Of a DNA stretch of 64,000 bases, positions 3,001-47,143 are shown one piece after another. Source of the stretch: Flectonema sp. DT1601 (Eukaryota); the NCBI GenBank assembly GCA_964019425.1, contig OZ025796.1, positions 1,302,001 to 1,366,000 on the forward strand, given 5' to 3'. Position 1 is the stretch's first letter; every line of letters starts with the position of its first letter. Both the position numbers and the translations under genes were made by a program. The notes under the pieces were generated by a model that saw only the letters and a program-made list of their open reading frames with translations, was not told the origin of the DNA and did not search any database.

Positions 3001-3188
3001 AAAAATGATACCTTTGTAGAAACGGTGTTATAAAATATTCGTGTGTGTTTCTTTTTTAATTGTTTTATTCAGGTTGTGTTGCCCACATGTGTGCAGTGCA
3101 ATTACAGCACTGAAGGACTTGACTGAAATGATCATCTCGGGTGTACTTTTTCTCATACCTTTTATACTTCAGGTAACACGCAGCCAAC

Positions 3189-5204
3189 ATGGCATCAGGT
3201 GGAGCATACAGCTTATTAGTATTTGTTGATAATGCGGTTACCGCTGTTAAGATCGACTTAGAAGCGAATGACGTAAACGAACTCGTTCTTCAAATTCAAC
3301 GAATCATCGGACTTCCTCTCGCCAGCATATGTTATTGGGATGAGGTTTCACGTGAATACGTACAACTCAGAACATTAGCACCATTGACTGATGGAAAATG
3401 TAAGATTTGGGTCGCTACTAGAGGAGTTAAAGCAATGCCCATAACTGAAGATAAAGACGCATTAGAATTCAGTTCTATTCGAGAACAGGTAGAAAAACTA
3501 ACTCCACCAGAAGACGGACTTGCATTTCGAGTTAATGAAATCTTGAGAGTACAGAATCACACTTTGGATCAGAAATTTCGGATGCGAAGATCTCAGTTGT
3601 TCGATCCGTCGGCGAGGACGACTTTAAAATTTCATGCGGGAAATCAACCGACTGATCAAATATTAAAAGAGGGATTCCTAATTCCAACCCGACCAGGTCC
3701 CTACGGACTCGGCGTCATCTTCAGTTCTGACATAAGCGTCGCGTATCACACAGAAGCAGTGAGATTCTTATTATGTGAAGTAGCAATAGGAAGAAGTACA
3801 ACTCTACACAATGAAGAAGATCGTGGAACCACATACGAAGTGTTACAACACATGGGATACGATTCAGTCATAAGTAGAACATCAGCACATCCGACATTTG
3901 ATCAACTTGAAGAAAACATCGTATACCATCCTCACCAGGCTATTCCAAGATATTTAGTAACTTGTAACCTTGTAAAGAGTAGAGGTCATAAGTCAAAGTT
4001 AAATGATCGATGTAGGCAACACAGTGGTGAACAATTAAAACTTTGGTGTTTAACATGTGGTCACATGGTTTGTCCTTATTGTATGTTTGGATCTCATGCT
4101 GGTCATACAGCGAAGGGATTAGATGAAGTTGCATCAAAAGAAAGAGATCTACTTATGAGATGTGAAACAGTTTTACAAAGAACTATCGAACAAAGACAAA
4201 ACGATCTCGGTGATCTTGAAAAAATGAAATCTCACTATCACTCTGTTGCAAGAGACACAGTTGATACTCTTGGTAGAGATATCACTGATATTAAAACACA
4301 ACTTGATACTCAACACCATGAGTTGTTGAGACAGATTGAAAGTACTGAAAATACTGTTGGTCTTCGTTTAGCTGGTTTTGTCAACCCGTTGCAACAAGAG
4401 GTGTGTTTACAGTTAGATATTTGAAATTAGTTAGGCGTATTTTTTTTTTATCAAAAAAAAAATAAAAAAAAATAAAAACAGCTCGCGGAATTGATTGGAA
4501 AACAACAACAACTCAGAGAGGCCCTGGATATCGCTAAGAACTCAAGGCCTAGTTCGCAGGCGGAATTCTTAAATCGAACAGTTGACCTGCATAACAGTCT
4601 AAATACGGTACCGAAGTTTGATGAGGCTCCAGATGTGACGACATTCGCTCCATCTGTTGAGTTTTTTATTGATACTAAAACAGTGAAAGATGCAGTGTCT
4701 CACATGCATGTTGAAGACAGAGATCCTCATCCACACAAACAAGTTCATCCTCTTGGAACATTAGCTCTTCAGAGTGAGGGTCTTCTATCAAGAGATGACA
4801 GCTTAGATACAACAGAGTCGAGGTTGTTAGCTCTTGAGACTGGTCATATCTGGGCTATTCCCAACTTTAATGAACATATCAGTGCCAATCAGACTGTTGA
4901 TATATTTTCTGATCCTTTCCTCATGTCTGGACAGTATTGGGAAATGAAACTATCTTTTCTCCCACTCGAAAAATCAATTGCTGTCTACTTGTATGCCGTC
5001 AGACATCAGTTTCGTACAAACTTTCGTGTTGCAGTATTCAGATCAAAACGTTGGCATGTAAAGTCAACTCGTAATTGGGCTGATGAATTTCGTGGTAGAG
5101 GTTGGGGAATTAAACCGTTTATTTCTTATGATGAGTTATTAACATATGTTCACAATGACACATTAAAATGGGTGATTACCTTTACTGGAAACGGTTTATA
5201 CTGA
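3189..5204 (+). CDS. PARP-like (ADP-ribosyltransferase fold) + B-box zinc finger + coiled coil + MATH domain protein, ~644 aa; exons 3189-4400, 4482-5204
   Basis: Phase-0 intron 4401-4481 (GTGTGT...AAAAACAG) joins ORFs 3189 and 4491. PARP-like motifs FHAG..ILKEGF..YGLGVIFS..LLCEVAIG..EENIVYHPHQAIPRYLV; B-box CRQH-x7-CLTC-x4-CPYC-x4-HAGH; MATH-like IWAIPNF..SDPFLMSGQYWEMKL..GWGIKPFISYDEL. Confidence 0.85.
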
Positions 5205-34920: not shown

Positions 34921-35344
34921 GACTAGTAGCACATCTCTACTTTCCTTGCAATTTCGACCCCACCGATTGGTTGTCCCTTCCCGACTGAAGTCAATACCCC
35001 TTCCGATAAAGGCTGTGGTGCACGCTTTACATGTGTTTTCTTTTTTGGGTATAATGAGTTTCGTAAGGTACCTGCTCATTTATGAAAATAAAACTGTAAT
35101 ATCGAATATAGCAGGTGTCTTTAGCAGTTTTTATTTCAACAGAAACACACAAAAATGCGAATATTTCATTGTTTTGGTTTACCTACCGTATCTCAACTCA
35201 TTTTATGTACATAGTGGCTAGTTATATATTGCAAAAAAAAAAAAAACTCACTAACAAGGAAATAGTATTTCTGGAGTTGCAGAAATGTCTTACTAAGAAG
35301 AGGAGGATTAAAAACAAAAAAATAAAAAAAAAATATAAAAAAAC

Positions 35345-36409
35345 ATGTCTGAAACCGCTGAGATTTCATCCCTTAAGGGTGACATTACTAATGTTGAAAA
35401 GGGAGGAAAGAAATCTTCCAAAGGCTGGTTTAGTTCTCTCTTTAAAAAGAACAAACCAGAATCTGAAGAGACCGATCCCTACGGACTCACAGCTACTCAA
35501 AGAGAGAAATTTTCAAATGGAGTTCCCATGTTAGAGGCAATGGCTGGTCAAAACGCCTCAGCAGAAAGGTGGGAAGAAGCAGCTGAAGGATATGCCTTTG
35601 CTGCTAGAACATATTTACTCTTGGGAAACAGAACCAAATGCAGTTCACACTTTGTTAATTCCGGAAGCTGCCTTGCGAATGAAGCACAAAAAGTAATACG
35701 AAAATCTAATTCCCTTCCTGAAGAAGACCCAACAAAGACAGAACTCCAATCAAAGGCGACCAGCCTGCTAAAATCACAAATTGATCAGCTTAATAGAGCT
35801 TGTGAAGAGTCACAGATTGCTGGACACTTCACAACAGCAGCAAATATATTAGAAGACATCAGTAAGATACAGTGTGACATCAAAAGACCTCAGACATACG
35901 ATCCAATCAAAGGAGTCAAAACTTTAAAAGACGCTGCGAATATTTATACTCAAAGTGGTGCAGTCCAACAGGCGATTGATTGCCTTTCAAAGTTAGCAGT
36001 TGTTTATGAACATGAAAGTAAACTTGAAGAAGCTGAAGACCTTTGGAATGAATGCGCAAATCATGCCAGTGAGAAGAAAATACTACAAATGTCAATCATA
36101 AAATATCAATTTTCAGCTTTGATATGTCGCATATTAAGACTGTCGTTAAACACCGATAGGGAAGATTCATGTGAAAAGATGTCGGAGTCACTCGGTGATT
36201 GTATGATTGAAAATCCGCAATTCTCTCAAATTAGAGTTGAGTATCAGTTTTGTAACTCTTTAATCGATTTTATTAAAAATAATTCTACTGCTCCGATAGA
36301 TGATTTGATAAAGTCACATTCAGAGATACTGTTGCCTCATCACATATCCCTCTTGCGAAAATTTTTTGGAAAAAAGGGAGACAAAAAGTCGTTTTTCAGC
36401 TTTCGGTAG
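35345..36409 (+). CDS. Divergent alpha-SNAP-like (soluble NSF attachment protein / TPR-like) protein
   Basis: 354 aa; RWEEAAEGYAFAARTY, AGHFTTAANILEDIS, AIDCLSKLA, IIKYQFSALIC, NPQFSQIRVEYQFCNSLI match the SNAP pattern. Confidence 0.7.
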   Translation: MSETAEISSLKGDITNVEKGGKKSSKGWFSSLFKKNKPESEETDPYGLTATQREKFSNGVPMLEAMAGQNASAERWEEAAEGYAFAARTYLLLGNRTKCSSHFVNSGSCLANEAQKVIRKSNSLPEEDPTKTELQSKATSLLKSQIDQLNRACEESQIAGHFTTAANILEDISKIQCDIKRPQTYDPIKGVKTLKDAANIYTQSGAVQQAIDCLSKLAVVYEHESKLEEAEDLWNECANHASEKKILQMSIIKYQFSALICRILRLSLNTDREDSCEKMSESLGDCMIENPQFSQIRVEYQFCNSLIDFIKNNSTAPIDDLIKSHSEILLPHHISLLRKFFGKKGDKKSFFSFR

Positions 36410-37077: not shown

Positions 37078-38282
37078 ATGTCCAAAGGAATTCCAAACCA
37101 GATAGCGAAGAGGAAGTTAGATCACATCAACATTTGTGTGAATGATAAAATTGAACCTTTTAAAGAATCTCCGTTTCAAAAATGGAAAATGCCATACAAA
37201 ACACTTCCGGAAATCGACATGAATAATATAAACATGAGAACGAAATTTTTTAAATGGGACATATCATTCCCTCTAATCGTCGCTTCGATGACCGGAGGTG
37301 AGGAACACGGCAGGACAATAAACGAGAATATAGCCAGAGCATGCAACGCTGAGGGAATTCCTTTTGGTCTTGGATCTATGAGAATAATGACCCGTTATCC
37401 AGAATCGAAGTATCTATTATTACTATTATTATTAATTACAAAGACTTCTTTAAAAAAAATGATAAAATAAATATAACTAACCTCAGGCATACCTTTGACG
37501 TTAAGTCGTGTTGTCCAGATGTTCCAATGTTCGCTAATATTGGATTGGTACAGTTGAATTATGGTGTTACAGCTGAGGTATGTTTTTTTATTTTATTTTT
37601 TATTTTTTTTCATTCTGCGTAATTATAATGAAAATTCCTCCAAAAAAAAAAAAAAAAACAGGATATTAATAAATTAGTAGAAGAAGTTAAAGCTGACGGT
37701 CTATTTATTCACGTTAACCATCTTCAAGAAGCTGTCCAACCTGAAGGAGATGTAAATTTTGCTGGTCTCGTTGTTAAACTAAAAGAACTACTACCACAGA
37801 TATCTGTACCAGTTGTAGTAAAAGAAGTAGGACACGGATTCGATCCTGTGAGTGCTAGAATACTCTGGGATGCTGGGATCACATCTATTGATGTTGCTGG
37901 TGTAGGTGGTTGTTCATGGGCTTGGATTGAAGGTAGAAGACAAAAAGACTACTCAGAAGAAGAAAATTTAGGATACATCATGAGAGACGTAGGAGTTCCA
38001 ACAGATGTTAGTATCATAGAATGTCGTAAAGAGCTTCCTAACTCTTACTTAGTCGCATCCGGTGGACTCAGAAATGGTCTTGACATGGCGAAGGCCATTG
38101 CGCTAGGAGCTGACTACGTTTCCTGCGCAAAACCGTTCCTCAAAGCAGCGATGACCAGCACTGAAGAAGTACAAAAAGTTATCCAGAGATACAAAAAGGA
38201 AATGAGAGTCTCAATGTTTGCCTGTGGTGCAGGTGACGTCTCTGAGCTTAAACAAATTACAAACTTAATGACAAAATCATAA
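37078..38282 (+). CDS. idi2: Type 2 FMN-dependent isopentenyl-diphosphate delta-isomerase, 347 aa; exons 37078-37409, 37487-37577, 37662-38282
   Basis: RKLDHI, PLIVASMTGG, FGLGSMR, FANIGLVQL, IHVNHLQEAVQPEGD, PVVVKEVGHG, IDVAGVGGCSWAWIE, ASGGLRNGLDMAKAIALGAD. Confidence 0.95.
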
Positions 38283-38927: not shown

Positions 38928-41900
38928 ATGTCGGGACACGTCGACCCGACAGAGCAGGTGGTCGATGCTGTTAAAGATTCAGATGTAAGTAGTCCACCTG
39001 ACGTGACCGAAAGCAGTCCAAATAAAACGGCCGATGAGGAAACGAGAGCTACTGCTGATGAAGAAATAGCATCCGAACCACGCAGTCCAAACAACACAAT
39101 TGAAGAAGAGAAAAGAACATCTGCTGAAGACGAAGAGCTGGTTGAAGAGACGCATGACAAAACAATTGAAGAAGAGAAACGTGCGAGTATTCAAGAAGAA
39201 GAAATTGCTATCGGAGCAGATGATGAAATGGAGTTGCAGAGTCCGAATAAAAGTGACACAGCAGAAGAACAACAACCGACAGGAGATGAGCACCAACCCG
39301 AAATAAATAAAACAACTGACGAGGAACAAATACTTGAACGTGAAGAACAACCTCAACAAGAAGACACTGATTGTGATCATGACGATCCGTGGGTAAAGGT
39401 AACTGAAGGCAGTACTGGAACCTTCACAACCACTACAGACATTCCTTGGAGACCAACCGTTCATTACGTAATTGAAGGCAGTGCTGATGGTCAGTCAAAC
39501 AGAAGTGACGTCATTAAATCGTATTTTATAATGTCAATGCTTGGAACCTCTCGAAATACAAAACTAATTACTATCTGTCCATTGACTGGAACACTCGTAC
39601 ATGAAGGTATTTGGGGAACAGATATATTTAAATCCGAAGGAGACGCTCGCGCATACCTCACCGACAAACTAGGACTTCGAATAATAAATTGTGCTAAGGG
39701 ACCAGCTCTACTTGGTGCTGCAATATCAGGTAGTAAACTTCATATTTGTGTTGTCACTAAATCTGAAGCACGTCTTTGTCTACCAACAGGAGATCCTGTG
39801 TACACCATAACTGATGTTAAATGGGTACCAGTCAAATTAGCGTATCCAACACAAGGGCAATATCAATCAGTTTATTCTGGGCTGATAACTGACTTTAACA
39901 TAAGTAATCTTCACTACTACACACAACCCTTTGTTGATATAACTCATCCTTTTCCATCAACTGAACGCTCGTCTGATCCAAACTACGTGTGGAATCATTT
40001 TTTACAAGAACCCTTTAAGGCAATCGGTCTTAGCTCTTTGGTAGTTGACATGATTCAGGGACTTGCTATGAGTAAAGTTGTTAGTTTGGGTACTTTGAGG
40101 GTTCCTGTTGGAATGCAAAGAAGATTAACAAGATTTTATTTAAAATATAATAAAGAAAAATTAAGTTCAGTTCCGGAATTACTTCAGAAATACGCTCGTG
40201 GTCCGGAAGTGTTATTTAAGAAACTGACTTCGAAATACGGATCTGAACCAGCTGATGACGAAGAGTTAGAAGGTGAGAATATCGATGATTATGTTGAAAA
40301 ACCTTCTGAAGGGAATTATTGTCTTATAACCAGAAGAAGTTGTAAACATGCCGGAACTCGTTACAACGCTCGTGGAATCGATCAATTCGGGCACGTTGCT
40401 AACGAACTCGAATGTGAATTAATCCTGTCTTCCGGTAATAAGTTTTCATCATTTCTTTGGAGGAGAGGTTCAGTTCCAATAGGATGGTATTCATCTCTCG
40501 GACGTGCTGTTAAAGTCGGTCAAGCAACATTTCTAATCAAAGAAAACCCTTACGACTATAGTAATAAATATTGGGATTCCTTAGCTAGGAGATTCGCAGG
40601 TTGGGGTAAAGACAACAAAGCCCCTCTGATAACATGTCTTTCTCTACTTCATACTGAACCAGAACACGGTGAACTACTACTGGTAGAACACTTTCAAGAA
40701 TCATTAAGATCCGTAAAGAGTAAACGATCCACTACTAATGTTGATTTGTTTGGTTTTGATTGGCACAGAACTGTTAAGCAGCTCGGACTTCAAACAGCAG
40801 TTGAAGGCGCATGGGCTCGTCTTGCCGGGCCATTAACATCTGGTGGAGCAACAGTCGGAACTATGACGAACTCGGGTGATAATAAAGATGACTTCAGTGG
40901 ATCAGAAGCAAACAACAGTTTTATAAATACGACAGCACCAGGAGGATCTCCAACAAGTGATAGTAAGAAAAAGAAACAAGGAGCCTTTGGTATGATTCGA
41001 GGACTTGTTAGTCAACAAAAACTACGTTTTCAAGAAGGAGGATTCAACCTCGACCTGACATACATCACCCCGAGGATTATCGCAATGGGATTCCCTAGTT
41101 CTGGTGCTGAAGGTTATTATCGTAATCCAGTTGATGAAGTTGAAAGATTATTTGAAACACGTCACAAAGGTCATTATCGTATTTATAATCTATGTTCTGA
41201 ACGTGACTATGATTCAGACAACAGATTCAAAGGCTGCTATCTTCGAATGCCATTTGAAGATCACAACGCACCAGCACCCATTTCAATTATGCCTTGTTTA
41301 GTTAAAGATGCAATGGATTTTTTAAAACAACATCCTGAAAATGTTGTTTCAATCCATTGTAAAGCAGGTAAAGGAAGAACAGGACTGATGATAAGTGCGA
41401 TACTAATGGCGGGTGCTGAACCAGACTTAGTACCGCCAGCATCAGCAGCTGCGGCTTTGGGTTTCTTTGGTGCTGCTCGAACTAAAGATGGATTGGGAGT
41501 AACGATACCTTCTCAGAGAAGATATCTCACATATTATCAAGAAATGTTACTACATCATCATGGGTCTGTTAATCCTAATCCGCTACCACTTCGTATTGCT
41601 AAGATAGTAATTCAATCACCAATAAAACAAAACACTACTCCAAGTGTATATGTTCTAGTTCACGATGGGCCTAAATGGGTTAAAACAAAACTTGGAAGTC
41701 AATCAGTAGAAAGAGACACTCCAACATGTAAATGGGATTCTCGAAAAGTTGAATCTCCTCAACAAGCCGGAGCGAGATTCACATTATTTGATTTAGAAGA
41801 AGGAAAAGACGGGATGGGTCTAATCGTTAGAGGGGATACTAAGATATCATTCATGTCTGCTAGATCAATGCTTCGAGATGAGCATTTATTCCATCTCTGG

Positions 41901-44058
41901 TTTCACACGTCATTTATAAATATTGAAAGTATTAAAAAAGGAGAACCATTGCGATTCAACAAGTCTGAATTAGACAAAGCGTGTAAAGATGAAAAACATA
42001 CATCATTAAGACGAGACCTTCAGGTTGAGGTGTATTTTCAATTAGTTGACAACAATGAAGAAAGTCCTGTCTTAAACGATCAAGAGGTTCCTGAAAAAGT
42101 TAGTTCTGAAGTCGCAAATGAACCCTTGGCATCTCAATTACAAGAATCAGACGATGGGTCGGATGAAAATGAAATAATATCTTGTGTATCACAAAGACAG
42201 AGTGGTATTCTTCGATTAAATTGCGTTGATTCCCTCGACAGAACTAATTTAGTATCTTTCTTTGTCGCTCTTCAAGCATCGGGTGAGCTTCGTCGTCTTC
42301 TTAGAAATGACAGCGAACCCTCATTTCCATTTCAACAACTGACACTTCCACAAGTGAGATCATATTTGGGAGAAGATTTGGTTGGATTTCTCGCTGAAGC
42401 GTTTGTTTCAAATGGTGACGTCTGTTCGCTGTTGTACACAAACACACCCGCTACTCATACCGATGCTATCCGTGAAATGTCTCCTCGACTGTCAAAGGCT
42501 CAAAGTAACGCAAAACTATCAGTTATGAGGAGGTATCAAAATACAGTAAATGATACTGGTCGTCATAATGGTATTCTTGCATTCTTGGGATTGTTAAAGA
42601 AACCACCTCATCCACCTGCAGTACTGACTGGTGTGAGTAGCGCAGTGATATCTGGAGATATGAAACACATCAAAGAAACGAATGCTGACCCAACCTCTCT
42701 GTTAACAGGTCTTCCTGTTGGTGATCACCCTTGGATAACTAAGGCTGAGAATATGAGAGTTATTATTCTTTTACCAGCAGGTGTTGGTGCGGTCACTGAG
42801 GTGTCGTTGTGTTTTAGAAATGATCCAACTGGTGATGATGAAGGTTTCCCAACCAGACTTGAAATTGAAACAGGAAGTGACTTAAATTCTCTTAACTCTG
42901 CTCTTCCTCTAATTGCAGTTCCGAGAGCTGCAGATCATTGTTGGTTAACTTATGAGTTACAATCCCCAAGTAGATCCGGTGATAGAATTATTTCATTATC
43001 GTTTTCTGGTTGTCTGGGGTCACAGATGATCCTTGGGGGATTCCGTGTCCTCGGATGCGGTGTTGAAAAACCAATCAATACTCAACAACAAGACACAACA
43101 AATACCTTTTTGTGTGATAAAATTAAATGTACCACAGACGGTCAACTCACTTTCGCACCGAGTGGTATCTTCTTTATTGAATGTATAGAAATATTAAAAG
43201 GAACGTGCAGCAAGGAAATCTCAGTTGCCATTGGTATGAACCTTTCTATTATTATTTTTAATTTTTTCAAAAGAGAGAAAATAAGAAAAAAAATTAAAAA
43301 AAAAAAAAAAAAAACACAACAGCCATGAACCTCTCTGGAGCATCTGACGTGGAGTTCACTACCGACGGTAATCTATTGAAGTTGGAATCACCAATGAAAG
43401 GAAGGCTTATTATTATTAAGGGTGCTTCTAGCGATTTAAAAATTCAGATTCATGGAAAGAGAGAGCCAATGGCATTCAAGACTCCTCCACCTCCTTCGTC
43501 AGGATTGAGCTTGCGAAGACGTCAACTGTCTCGTAAAAAAGCGAGGGTGTTAGCGACGGTTCAGGTTTGTTGTTTTTTTATTTTATTTTTTTTATGGAGA
43601 AATAATGATATTTTAAAAATTAAAAAAAAAAAACTAAAAAAAAAAACAGGATGATGAAATGTTGGGAGCACTATTCGTTCTCATCGCAGAACCGAATGCG
43701 AACATTGTTGGCATCCGACTTTCTACTGCAGCACCAAACATTCAATCAAAAGGCATCCTTGTTGGAGTCGCAAATGATCCTGCAGTACAAACACTACCAT
43801 CCTCAAGTGCTAGATCAGCGATCATTGAGTATGTGTTTTCTTTATTTTATTTCATTCGACACACACGAAATCAAATAAATAACAACAAACAGTTACGCCG
43901 AAGACTTTGCGATCCCAGCTTGTGCGGAAAAGACTGTTCTCGATTATCACTTTTCTCAGCCAGTTAAAGGATCACTCGTTAGAATTGAAGTCCAACCTCT
44001 CACAGTTGATTCTTCATTTGTTGCTCTTTCCAGGGTATCTGTTCTGATAGCAAGCTGA
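38928..44058 (+). CDS. SAC9-like phosphoinositide phosphatase with an inserted PTEN phosphatase + C2 module, ~1630 aa; exons 38928-43233, 43323-43564, 43650-43828, 43893-44058
   Basis: SAC motifs RRSCKHAGTRYNARGID, VANELECELI, WRRGSVPIGW, RLNCVDSLDRTN; PTEN motifs LVSQQKLRFQEGGFNLDLTYITPRIIAMGFP, YNLCSERDYD, PFEDHNAP, HCKAGKGRTG, VTIPSQRRY, FHLWFHTSFI..ELDKACKD. Confidence 0.92.
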
Positions 44059-44876: not shown

Positions 44877-47143
44877 ATGAGTGACGCATATCTGTCGGGT
44901 GACTCACATCGATCAAACAGATCAACAGAAGGGAAGTGGGCTGTTCAAACATATCAAAAAAAGAAAGAACAACGCGTTGGTGTCTACCACCACGACAGTG
45001 ATGGAGGTCGACGAGAACGTCGTGGAAACCAACAACCAATAAATTCAAGACTCGGATTGTTATTTATATTAATGGTGTGCGGTGTTGCAATGCATGTTCT
45101 GTATCAGAGGTATGTATTTATAAAAAAAAAAAAAAAATGTAATACTGAGTAATAATAATATCAAAACAGCACATCCCAACTTCCCATTCAACAACTGTCA
45201 GGAGGAGTTCAACAGAAACTCGCTGCCTGGATGCCAGGAGGTAGTTTTGGAGATGAAATAACAATACAACGTGATCCGAGAACTAAGACTTGGGGAATGT
45301 ACATCACTCCTTCACTAATGCTTCGACGAGTTGATGAAAAAGCCCCTGCGAGAACAGCAGGACTACTACGATTTGTTTCTCGTAAGATAACTCACGCTAA
45401 TGGAGTATCAGTACTGACTCACGATCAATTTAGAAGTGTAGAGTCACGTGTTGGGGACTCCATCACTCTTCGATTTGCTCCTTCTATGGTATGCAATATT
45501 CTTATATATAAACTACTTCTACAACTTCCATAACAAAACATGACCACTTCTACAACTTCCATAACAAAACATGACCACTAAAAACAATAAAACAGTTCGT
45601 AGTCGGAGCAACAGTCGTAGTAATCGAAAGAGTAATATTTGAAAGTGGAAAAGGAGTTGACGTTGGTATGACTGGGGTTGTTGTTAAGATTCCGGGTGAC
45701 ATAGATGGATCTGTAGCATCAGTAAGTACGGCTGGTATTGGTTTATGGGATGCTTTCCCAGGTCAAGTTGAACCAACAGAAGACGCTATAAAACTAACAC
45801 CAGGAATGGCTGTCAGAGCTCGTAAAATGATAATTTTTCAAAGTGGAAAACGAGTTCCACAAGGAGCTGTTGGTGTTGTGAACAAAGTACCAGGTGAGGT
45901 TATCGGATCTGTTGCTGAAGTAACTGTTGGAGGACTTAAATGGGACGCAACAGAAGGACAATTAGAAATCATCGGATCTCTAGCATCTGATAAAGAAACA
46001 CCTCAACCGCCAACTATCGCTACTGAAGAAGTTGCTCAACTGTTGGAGTCACTCGGACATCAACAATACCTTCCAAAGTTAATTCTTTATGGATTTGATA
46101 AACTTGATTTCTTATCACAATCTACTAAAAGAGATGGTGAAGCTCTCAATATCAAACCAATGCATTGGAAACGCATCGTCACAGAAGCCGGGAAACGAGT
46201 TCCCCTATCAGGACGTGGCCGTTCTGGTTTGGAACACCTCTGCAGCGATCTCGGTGAAAAGAAACTTTTACCAAAACTACTTAAGTACGGTCTTGACAGA
46301 CTTGATCAAGTAGCTCAGGCTCAGAATGTTGAAGGTATGGTTGCTTTGTTTTGTATACTCATCCCTCACAAACTACTATTTGCGAAATTAAAAAAAAAAA
46401 CTACCAAAACAGGTCAACATCTTGGACTGAAACCTGAAACCTGGAAGCGTGTTGTTGATGAAGCACGTAAAAGGGTAAACATGACCACCAATGCTATGGA
46501 ACAACCACAAACTAATACTCATCAAAGTCTGTATAGATTACTACAAGATGTTGGGTTAATAAAACATTATAAAAGATTAATTGTTTTTGGTTTAGACTCT
46601 GTTGAGAGGATGGCTAACTCACAAAACATAAGTTCAACAATAGAACTTCAGGGATGGGAATGGGACAGAATACGTACCGAAGCTAACAACAGATTGCAAG
46701 GTAAGGCTCCGACAATATTCGTTTCATCCGATCCTGAGGGTGAGAAAGAACAGGATCTCATTGAACATGAAACACTAGCTAAGAAATACGATCAAGAAGA
46801 TGTCGGAAAGGAAGAAAGAACTGAAGCACATTCTTCTACTGTTGACACAATCAGAGGAGGAGGTCAAACCGGAGGTGGTCTCTCTATCACAGATCGATTA
46901 GTTGGTGGTGCCGTAGCTAAGGAAGAAGAAGGTCGAGAGCGATTTAAAAATGTTATCCAACGACTTAGTAACTTACCACTTCAGGAGAGGACTGCGTTAC
47001 TTCAGCAGGTTTGTTAACCTTCTTTTTTTTTTTTTTTTTGAACTAAAATTTATACTGAAATCTTCGTTATGTTATGTCTTGGGGAAAAAAAAAAAAAAAC
47101 ACAACACACACACACACAGGCCGAAGGCAAATCAAAAGGATAA
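44877..47143 (+). CDS. Type II membrane protein: TM + PDZ + 2 SH3-like beta repeats + 3 SAM-like repeats; exons 44877-45109, 45170-45488, 45596-46334, 46413-47008, 47120-47143
   Basis: TM LGLLFILMVCGVAMHVLY; PDZ-like ITIQRDPRTKTWGMYIT..VDEKAPARTAGL..ITHANGV; SAM-like VAQLLESLGHQQYLPKLILYGFDKL..WKRI three times; four GT-AG introns give a continuous frame. Confidence 0.78.
45515..45576 (+). repeat. Perfect 31-nt tandem duplication inside an intron
   Basis: ACTTCTACAACTTCCATAACAAAACATGACC present twice. Confidence 0.95.

What the first reader, a model, noticed from the sequence alone, without database searches (positions are those of the whole stretch)
38928..44058. Nested dual phosphoinositide phosphatase: a whole PTEN (phosphatase + C2) inserted inside a SAC9-like domain
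Seen in one uninterrupted exon: SAC motifs up to FDWH..AWARL, a linker, a full PTEN module (~40980-42050, HCKAGKGR at 41355, FEDH acid loop, C2), an acidic linker, then the SAC catalytic RLNCVDSLDRTN (Cys at 42222). Both CX5R sites look intact. Established: PTEN is a 3-phosphatase for PI(3,4,5)P3/PI(3,4)P2; SAC domains remove other phosphoinositide phosphates; CxDSLDRTN is the SAC9-type variant; synaptojanin is a tandem rather than nested SAC fusion. Inference: a single-chain sequential lipid-dephosphorylation enzyme created by domain insertion. I do not know this architecture from elsewhere.
Basis: partly seen in the sequence, partly recalled or inferred. Interest (0 to 1): 0.82.

Follow-up and report, generated by a model that had tools for sequence, protein, structure and literature searches.

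The report
PTEN nested inside a SAC9 phosphatase
In this genome and eight named diplonemid marine protists, one gene carries a whole PTEN lipid phosphatase inserted into a loop of a SAC9 lipid phosphatase with both catalytic motifs intact, likely making a single protein that strips two phosphates in turn from membrane signalling lipids.

Summary
A 4-exon gene (38928-44058, 1630 aa) has, within exon 1, a SAC9 domain split just before its catalytic strand by a complete PTEN phosphatase + C2 module. A 14-residue loop of Naegleria SAC9 corresponds to 442 residues here. It is not an assembly artefact: 11 other records share the layout, covering eight named diplonemid species, seven from transcript assemblies. 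Both CX5R motifs are invariant in 11 of 11 aligned fused proteins. An AlphaFold model closes the two SAC halves onto yeast Sac1 (Z 30.7, 474 residues, 3.0 A), though only when unfused SAC9s were in the alignment. Diplonemids also keep an unfused SAC9 (sister clade, 100/100) and stand-alone PTENs, so the gene likely arose by duplication and insertion in their ancestor. No fusion outside diplonemids appeared in four protein searches, and eight paper searches found no description. Likely function (inferred, untested): PTEN removes the 3-phosphate and SAC9 the 5-phosphate, PIP3 to PI(4,5)P2 to PI4P, on flexible tethers. It works like synaptojanin but is not one. Verdict: new variant of a known kind.

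The parts
38928..43233 (+). Exon 1 (ATG 38928): acidic N-terminus, split SAC9 domain, PTEN insert, GBDL-like domain
38928..39377 (+). Acidic, poorly conserved N-terminal region (aa 1-150; 23% mean identity among fused orthologues)
39450..40865 (+). SAC9 N-part: SacN subdomain and first half of the catalytic subdomain (aa 175-646), ending in the first strand of the hairpin that carries the insert
40110..40247 (+). Second, small insert inside the SAC domain: 46-aa module predicted as three helices, no Pfam family; absent from Lacrimia and from unfused SAC9s
40866..40979 (+). Linker 1 (26-42 aa in orthologues, 20% identity, low pLDDT), lysine run at its end here
40980..41567 (+). PTEN phosphatase domain (aa 685-880): acid loop FEDH at 41253, P-loop HCKAGKGR at 41355, TI loop; best-conserved segment (72%)
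41577..42047 (+). PTEN-type C2 domain (aa 884-1040)
42048..42173 (+). Linker 2, acidic in 10 of 10 orthologues examined (36-115 aa, 10-31 D/E), low pLDDT
42174..42602 (+). SAC9 C-part (aa 1083-1225): return strand of the hairpin and catalytic motif RLNCVDSLDRTN (42213-42248, Cys 42222)
42615..43082 (+). SAC9 first GBDL domain (weak here, E 0.029; E 1e-8 to 8e-8 in four orthologues)
43234..43322 (+). Intron 1, 89 nt, GT-AG, A-rich 3' end
43323..43564 (+). Exon 2
   Evidence: tblastn of the Flectonema protein, 64.5%
43565..43649 (+). Intron 2, 85 nt, GT-AG
43650..43828 (+). Exon 3, C-terminal domain shared weakly with unfused diplonemid SAC9
43829..43892 (+). Intron 3, 64 nt, GT-AG
43893..44058 (+). 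Exon 4, ending in TGA
   Evidence: 94.5% to the Flectonema protein

Best explanation
The gene encodes one chain in which a complete PTEN module sits inside a loop of a SAC9 domain with both catalytic motifs intact, and it likely works as a two-step phosphoinositide eraser: PTEN would remove the 3-phosphate and SAC9 would then remove the 5-phosphate, turning PI(3,4,5)P3 into PI(4,5)P2 and then PI4P on the same patch of membrane. Shown: the nested layout, invariant active-site motifs, transcription in seven relatives, presence in both Diplonemidae and Hemistasiidae, and unfused SAC9 and PTEN paralogues in the same species. Predicted: the SAC halves refold into one Sac1-like domain, with PTEN on two flexible linkers, so coupling would come from shared location rather than a channel. 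Inferred: the substrates (from human PTEN and plant SAC9), the order of the steps, a role on forming endosomes or food vacuoles, the C2 domain as the membrane anchor in place of the FYVE or WW domains of other SAC9s, and origin by SAC9 duplication and PTEN insertion in the diplonemid ancestor. The architecture itself is near certain (about 0.97); the confidence given is for the sequential 3-then-5 mechanism.
For: Nesting: (Naegleria 423/438 against aa 646/1089). The xWH-to-catalytic-motif distance is 471-556 aa in 11 fused and 47-98 aa in 36 unfused SAC9-type proteins. Both hairpin strands are kept. Real gene: 10 other records plus one cluster member, eight named species, seven TRINITY-derived. 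Active sites: HCKAGKGR, DHN and TIPSQRRY in 11 of 11 fused rows; CVDSLDRTN in 11 of 11; mean identity PTEN 72%, SAC C-part 67%, SAC N-part 59%, C2 59%, linkers about 20%. Fold: pLDDT 79.4; Sac1 8c81_E aligns over model 7-1058, Z 30.7, rmsd 3.0, 474 residues; PTEN 5bug_A Z 27.5, rmsd 4.0, 305 residues. Origin: fused clade 99/96, sister to the unfused diplonemid SAC9 clade 100/99, together 100/100 (names). Substrates: PTEN core CKAGKGR acts on PI(3,4,5)P3 (PMC6563779 section 46); sac9 mutants gain PI(4,5)P2 and lose PI4P (PMC9436410). No FYVE or WW hit in 5 of 5 fused orthologues scanned or in the window protein, while Naegleria, Pharyngomonas and unfused Namystynia SAC9 hit FYVE and the grass SAC9 hits WW.
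Against: No activity was measured. SAC9's 5-phosphatase activity could not be confirmed in vitro (PMC9436410). As of 2013 there was no definite evidence of PI(3,4,5)P3 in the protists that encode class I PI3K (PMC3823935), and I did not test for class I PI3K in diplonemids. The control fold from the 11 fused sequences alone was poor (pLDDT 52.7) and did not close the SAC halves (Sac1 3lwt Z 8.9, model 5-471 only), so the good model leans on unfused SAC9 rows. pTM is 0.60 and the linkers are low-confidence, so the placement of the two sites is unknown. Only two of the four basic residues of human PTEN's N-terminal lipid-binding stretch are kept (alignment; the stretch's role is recalled). One D. 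papillatum record (P0010) lacks the SAC catalytic motif, although the other has it. The PTEN donor is unresolved: sister to a stand-alone diplonemid clade at 94 in FastTree, a polytomy in IQ-TREE.
Confidence: 0.55

Rival explanations
1. Both sites are active but not as a 3-then-5 relay. The SAC site would act like Sac1 or the synaptojanin Sac domain on PI4P, PI3P or PI(3,5)P2, so the protein would take PI(3,4)P2 to PI4P to plain PI, or clear different lipids in parallel.
For: Sac domains are broad in specificity, and Sac1 and synaptojanin Sac act on PI3P, PI4P and PI(3,5)P2 (PMC6563779). SAC9's substrate is unproven in vitro. The fused motif has V where 12 of 15 unfused SAC9s have A, so specificity may have shifted after duplication.
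Against: The only genetic evidence for a SAC9 points to PI(4,5)P2. The motif stays SAC9-type (DSLDR) and the domain falls within SAC9 in the tree.
Confidence: 0.25
2. One module mainly serves the other. PTEN + C2 would be a membrane anchor or PIP3 sensor that positions or switches the SAC9 domain (or the SAC body would be a scaffold for PTEN), with one site contributing little catalysis.
For: The fused proteins lack the FYVE or WW domains of other SAC9s. Linker 2 is acidic in 10 of 10, recalling PTEN's inhibitory tail (recalled; PDB titles show that tail). The unfused paralogues could cover the ordinary catalytic jobs.
Against: Both catalytic motifs and the PTEN acid and TI loops are invariant across Diplonemidae and Hemistasiidae, and the two catalytic segments are the best-conserved parts. 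A silent site would be expected to decay.
Confidence: 0.17
3. The nesting is an artefact: a chimeric assembly, a merged gene model, or a PTEN gene lying in an intron that is spliced out.
For: No sequencing run was available to read the junctions of this genome. A GTATGA hexamer lies at 40990, near the start of the insert. One old D. papillatum model is merged with its upstream neighbour.
Against: The same layout is in seven transcript assemblies and in genome-derived records. The frame is open throughout. The nine AG sites in linker 2 have 33-43% A upstream against 63-83% at the three real acceptors.
Confidence: 0.03

Closest known systems
SAC9 (Arabidopsis SAC9 and protist SAC9-like proteins)
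   Same: SacN + SAC domain with the CxDSLDRT motif, followed by a GBDL domain; falls inside the SAC9 clade.
   Different: About 415-440 residues of PTEN + C2 + linkers replace a short hairpin loop; second 46-aa insert; no WW or FYVE hit; V instead of the usual A after the catalytic Cys.
PTEN
   Same: Phosphatase + C2 in order, HCKAGKGR P-loop, acid loop and TI loop; E 5e-58 to 1d5r; fold Z 27.5.
   Different: Both ends are tied into another enzyme's fold; no free C-terminal tail or PDZ-binding end; N-terminal basic stretch partly changed.
Synaptojanin / yeast Inp51-53
   Same: One chain with a Sac domain and a second phosphoinositide phosphatase, the Sac domain being proposed to use the other's product (PMC6563779; PMC4133831).
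   Different: Synaptojanin is tandem, with a 5-phosphatase of another fold and a non-SAC9 Sac domain. Here the partner is a 3-phosphatase, it is nested, and the Sac is SAC9-type.
Sac1 and Fig4
   Same: Same predicted fold: Z 30.7 (8c81_E) and 27.6 (7k1w).
   Different: About 20% identity; single-activity enzymes; no PTEN.
VSP/TPTE and auxilin (PTEN module fused to other domains)
   Same: PTEN-type module reused within a larger protein.
   Different: Those are end-to-end fusions to a voltage sensor or a J-domain protein (recalled), not insertions into a second lipid phosphatase.

Membership tests
SAC9 | SAC domain that groups with SAC9s rather than other SAC families | tested here: met
   nearest non-fused hits are SAC9s; only two non-SAC9 outgroups were in the tree
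SAC9 | CxDSLDRT catalytic motif | tested here: met
   CVDSLDRTN in 11 of 11 fused rows
SAC9 | GBDL domain after the SAC domain | tested here: met
   E 0.029 here; E 1e-8 to 8e-8 in 4 of 5 orthologues, 0.0013 in the fifth
SAC9 (plant type) | WW domain | tested here: not met
   no WW hit in the window protein or 5 of 5 orthologues; also absent from Naegleria and Pharyngomonas SAC9, so it marks the plant form only
SAC9 | PI(4,5)P2 5-phosphatase activity | not testable with these tools
   Not confirmed in vitro even for plant SAC9
PTEN | Phosphatase domain followed by PTEN-type C2 | tested here: met
PTEN | HCKAGKGR P-loop, acid-loop Asp and TI loop | tested here: met
   11 of 11 fused rows
PTEN | N-terminal basic lipid-binding stretch | tested here: inconclusive
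   alignment: two of four basic residues kept; a lysine run lies just upstream
PTEN | 3-phosphatase activity on PI(3,4,5)P3 | not testable with these tools
   Inferred from the motif
Synaptojanin | Inositol 5-phosphatase domain C-terminal to an intact Sac domain | tested here: not met
   no such Pfam domain; the partner is PTEN and lies inside the Sac domain
Sac1 | Sac1-like fold | tested here: met
   Z 30.7, rmsd 3.0, 474 aligned (predicted model); the fused-only control model was too poor to test it
Sac1 | C-terminal transmembrane anchors | not tested
   No transmembrane predictor was run; the C-terminus is SAC9-like

The most novel reading that the evidence does not exclude
The nesting is itself the mechanism. 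Because PTEN is threaded through the hairpin that leads straight into the SAC9 catalytic strand, PTEN's docking on a PIP3-bearing membrane, or release of the acidic linker, would switch the SAC9 site on. That would be a one-chain gated eraser that takes PI(3,4,5)P3 to PI4P without leaving PI(4,5)P2, evolved independently of synaptojanin in a very abundant group of marine protists.
Probability: 0.2. Interest if true: 0.82.

Novelty: new variant of a known kind. Interest (0 to 1): 0.63.

Why it matters
Two-activity phosphoinositide phosphatases are known as synaptojanins. A PTEN-SAC9 pairing, and one built by insertion, did not turn up in eight paper searches or outside diplonemids in four protein searches. 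If both sites work, diplonemids end 3-phosphoinositide signals in their own way, which also suggests they make PI(3,4,5)P3 or PI(3,4)P2. The fused and unfused SAC9 pair in one species gives a natural comparison for an open question, what SAC9 really dephosphorylates. The site also shows where a Sac fold tolerates a 400-residue insert. Pfam-based annotation hides the nesting, which may explain why it went unnoticed: the NCBI name for the D. papillatum protein is just 'Phosphatidylinositol 3'.

Tried and rejected
No genome is held for this window, so paralogues and class I PI3K could not be sought in it. No sequencing run was listed; that is no evidence either way. The test of whether PTEN docks on the SAC domain (complex prediction) was not available, so that question is open. 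Alignment A3 (69 rows of mixed layout) put unfused SAC C-parts onto the PTEN columns and was dropped; A4 was folded instead. The fused-only fold was too poor to judge. The ESM Atlas gave only hits under 0.9, all Syja_N, for the small insert. NCBIfam gave nothing for the protein. Earlier findings of the scan: nothing by sequence or words. A fusion in shorter proteins: 0 of the 120 listed (of 1243 hits) carry PF02383. Proteins over 2517 aa were covered only by the representatives search. Lacrimia P0098 (same TRINITY cluster number as the fusion) is a separate PTEN, 67% identical, not a skipped isoform. In-frame splicing-out of the insert was rejected for lack of an A-rich acceptor. The exact PTEN donor clade was not resolved. 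Supplements of the D. papillatum genome paper were not read and could list this gene.
Full report
Observation. A stop-free frame begins at ATG 38928. Human PTEN matches aa 693-890 and 965-1038 (E 5e-58), and the Fig4 model's best stretch is aa 1081-1225. The Syja_N model stops before the catalytic motif, so Pfam alone shows SAC then PTEN in tandem.

Gene model. tblastn with the Flectonema neradi transcript protein gives four exons (38928-43233, 43323-43564, 43650-43828, 43893-44058) with GT-AG introns of 89, 85 and 64 nt. The model is open for 1630 aa and 77.6% identical to that protein over 1636 columns. The whole SAC-PTEN-SAC stretch is in exon 1. The window is therefore from a diplonemid close to Flectonema (inference). 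Most Diplonemidae introns are canonical (PMC12621601, passages). The nine AG sites in linker 2 lack the A-rich stretch of the real acceptors (33-43% against 63-83% A), so skipping of the insert is unlikely, although one GTATGA lies at 40990.

The insertion. Against Naegleria SAC9, aa 175-646 match 2-423 and aa 1089-1387 match 438-767: 14 residues there, 442 here. The distance from the xWH motif to the catalytic motif is 471-556 aa in 11 fused proteins and 47-98 aa in 36 unfused SAC9-type proteins (the window's duplicate record was left out, and P0010 has no catalytic motif). Both strands that flank the loop are kept. An AlphaFold2 model of aa 170-1240 from 26 sequences (11 fused, 15 unfused SAC9) has pLDDT 79.4 and pTM 0.60, low mainly in the two linkers. 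Yeast Sac1 8c81_E aligns across both halves (model 7-1058, Z 30.7, rmsd 3.0, 474 residues), Fig4 7k1w at Z 27.6 (3.6, 431) and PTEN 5bug_A on the insert at Z 27.5 (4.0, 305) (Foldseek, finds the same families). The control from the 11 fused sequences alone was poor (pLDDT 52.7) and matched Sac1 only over model 5-471 (Z 8.9). The closed fold therefore rests partly on the unfused rows; the sequence evidence for nesting does not.

Distribution. Of 40 hits to aa 170-1420, 11 carry both PF02383 and PF10409, one being the window's own record. The look-up names Flectonema neradi, Diplonema ambulator, D. japonicum, D. papillatum (two records), Rhynchopus humris, Lacrimia lanifica, Artemidia motanka and Namystynia karyoxenos; one ENA record is unnamed and one more ENA record sits in the R. 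humris cluster. Seven are TRINITY transcript products. The SAC N-part search gave 22 hits and no new fusion. In the search of 1.84 billion representatives, 150 of 8091 hits were listed; the four fused ones score 899-1487 bits, the next 408, and rank 150 scores 206, so a moderately distant fusion should have been listed. Among shorter proteins 0 of 120 listed (of 1243) carry PF02383. Profiles of my own find both a PTEN and a SAC9 part in 13 of 294 proteins held: two window records and the 11 above. P0010, a draft D. papillatum model, lacks several segments including the SAC motif; KAJ9443301.1 has them.

Both sites are kept. HCKAGKGR, DHN and TIPSQRRY are present in 11 of 11 fused rows, and CVDSLDRTN in 11 of 11; 12 of 15 unfused SAC9s have A at the second position. 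Mean pairwise identity over 10 fused proteins (P0010 dropped) is 72% for the PTEN phosphatase, 67% for the SAC C-part, 59% for the SAC catalytic N-part and C2, 51% for SacN, 40% for GBDL and about 20% for the linkers; linker 2 is acidic in all ten.

Origin. Diplonemids also have an unfused SAC9: D. japonicum, Namystynia, Flectonema and Lacrimia. In a 40-row tree of the SAC pieces (10 near-duplicate or partial rows left out) the fused proteins form one clade (99/96), the four unfused diplonemid ones another (100/99), and the two are sisters (100/100) (quick version). The deepest split in the fused clade separates Artemidia + Namystynia from the rest. The PTEN parts form one clade (100) in both trees. 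FastTree (110 rows) joins it at 94 to a clade with stand-alone PTENs of D. papillatum, D. japonicum and Artemidia; IQ-TREE (44 of 177 candidate rows) leaves it in a polytomy with several clades that include diplonemid PTENs. One duplication and insertion before the Diplonemidae-Hemistasiidae split is the simplest reading. No named kinetoplastid or euglenid SAC9 was in the sample and several rows are unnamed, so an earlier date is not excluded.

How it likely works. PTEN's CKAGKGR core dephosphorylates PI(3,4,5)P3 (PMC6563779, section 46) and also PI(3,4)P2 and PI3P (PMC4133831, passages). Arabidopsis sac9 mutants gain PI(4,5)P2 and lose PI4P, the catalytic Cys is needed, and the protein sits on early endosomes, but the activity was not confirmed in vitro (PMC9436410, passages; PMC8717918, passages). 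Put together, PTEN's product is SAC9's proposed substrate: PIP3 to PI(4,5)P2 to PI4P. The linkers are variable and low-confidence, so I expect tethering rather than a channel. The fused proteins lack the FYVE or WW domain of other SAC9s, so the C2 domain may be the anchor. All of this is inference. Class I PI3K genes are reported in Trypanosoma cruzi, Leishmania and Naegleria, but PIP3 itself had not been shown there as of 2013 (PMC3823935, passages). The main rivals are a Sac1-like SAC site that takes PI4P on to PI (0.25) and a targeting or switching role for one module (0.17).

Comparison and novelty. It works like synaptojanin, whose Sac domain is proposed to use the product of its 5-phosphatase, but fails membership: no 5-phosphatase domain, a SAC9-type Sac, and nesting. 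It passes the sequence tests for both SAC9 and PTEN. Eight paper searches (listings only) found no description, ranked with more terms first, none of the 25 listed held both SAC9 and diplonemid. The main text of the D. papillatum genome paper has no PTEN, phosphoinositide or phosphatase (PMC10161547, term search); its supplements were not read, and subscription journals are not covered. The proteins are public and their domains are precomputed, so the pairing is visible in databases, but I found it neither named nor discussed. Verdict: real, a new variant of a known kind, interest 0.63.

Noticed in passing
window 40110-40247: A 46-aa module, predicted as three helices and without a Pfam family, is a second insert in the SAC domain. 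It is missing in Lacrimia and in unfused SAC9s, and occurs as 10-24 copies in nine otherwise unrelated proteins held here, one with a PH domain.
   Followed up: partly
window 37078-38282: The upstream gene is a type 2 isopentenyl-diphosphate isomerase (TIGR02151). The draft D. papillatum model P0010 starts with 29 aa that match its end (52%, E 1e-5), suggesting the same neighbour there and a merged gene model.
   Followed up: partly
proteins P0070, P0073, P0074, P0081, P0085: SAC9 is called plant-specific in PMC9436410, but SAC9-type proteins occur in Pharyngomonas, Ancoracysta, Thecamonas, Anaeramoeba, Naegleria and diplonemids; databases already name several as SAC9.
   Followed up: partly
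protein P0043, aa 513-543: In plant SAC9 the WW domain lies between two pieces that match the SAC C-part profile (447-484 and 547-646), so it too looks inserted in the SAC domain, at another site.
   Followed up: partly
proteins P0101, P0158: The unfused diplonemid SAC9s of Namystynia and Lacrimia carry long inserts of their own inside the SAC N-part (about 150 and 420 aa by profile gaps); Namystynia's also has an N-terminal FYVE.
   Followed up: no
window 35339-36409: SNAP-family gene (PF14938, E 5e-19) three genes upstream; a trafficking gene, but probably a chance neighbour.
   Followed up: no
window 45575-47017: Downstream ORF with SAM-like repeats; its intron at about 45490-45595 holds a short direct repeat.
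   Followed up: no
window 3177-5204: PARP catalytic domain, B-box and, in the next ORF, a MATH domain, possibly one gene.
   Followed up: no
window, many introns (e.g. 43322, 43649, 37661): Intron 3' ends are A-rich runs before CAG rather than pyrimidine tracts.
   Followed up: partly
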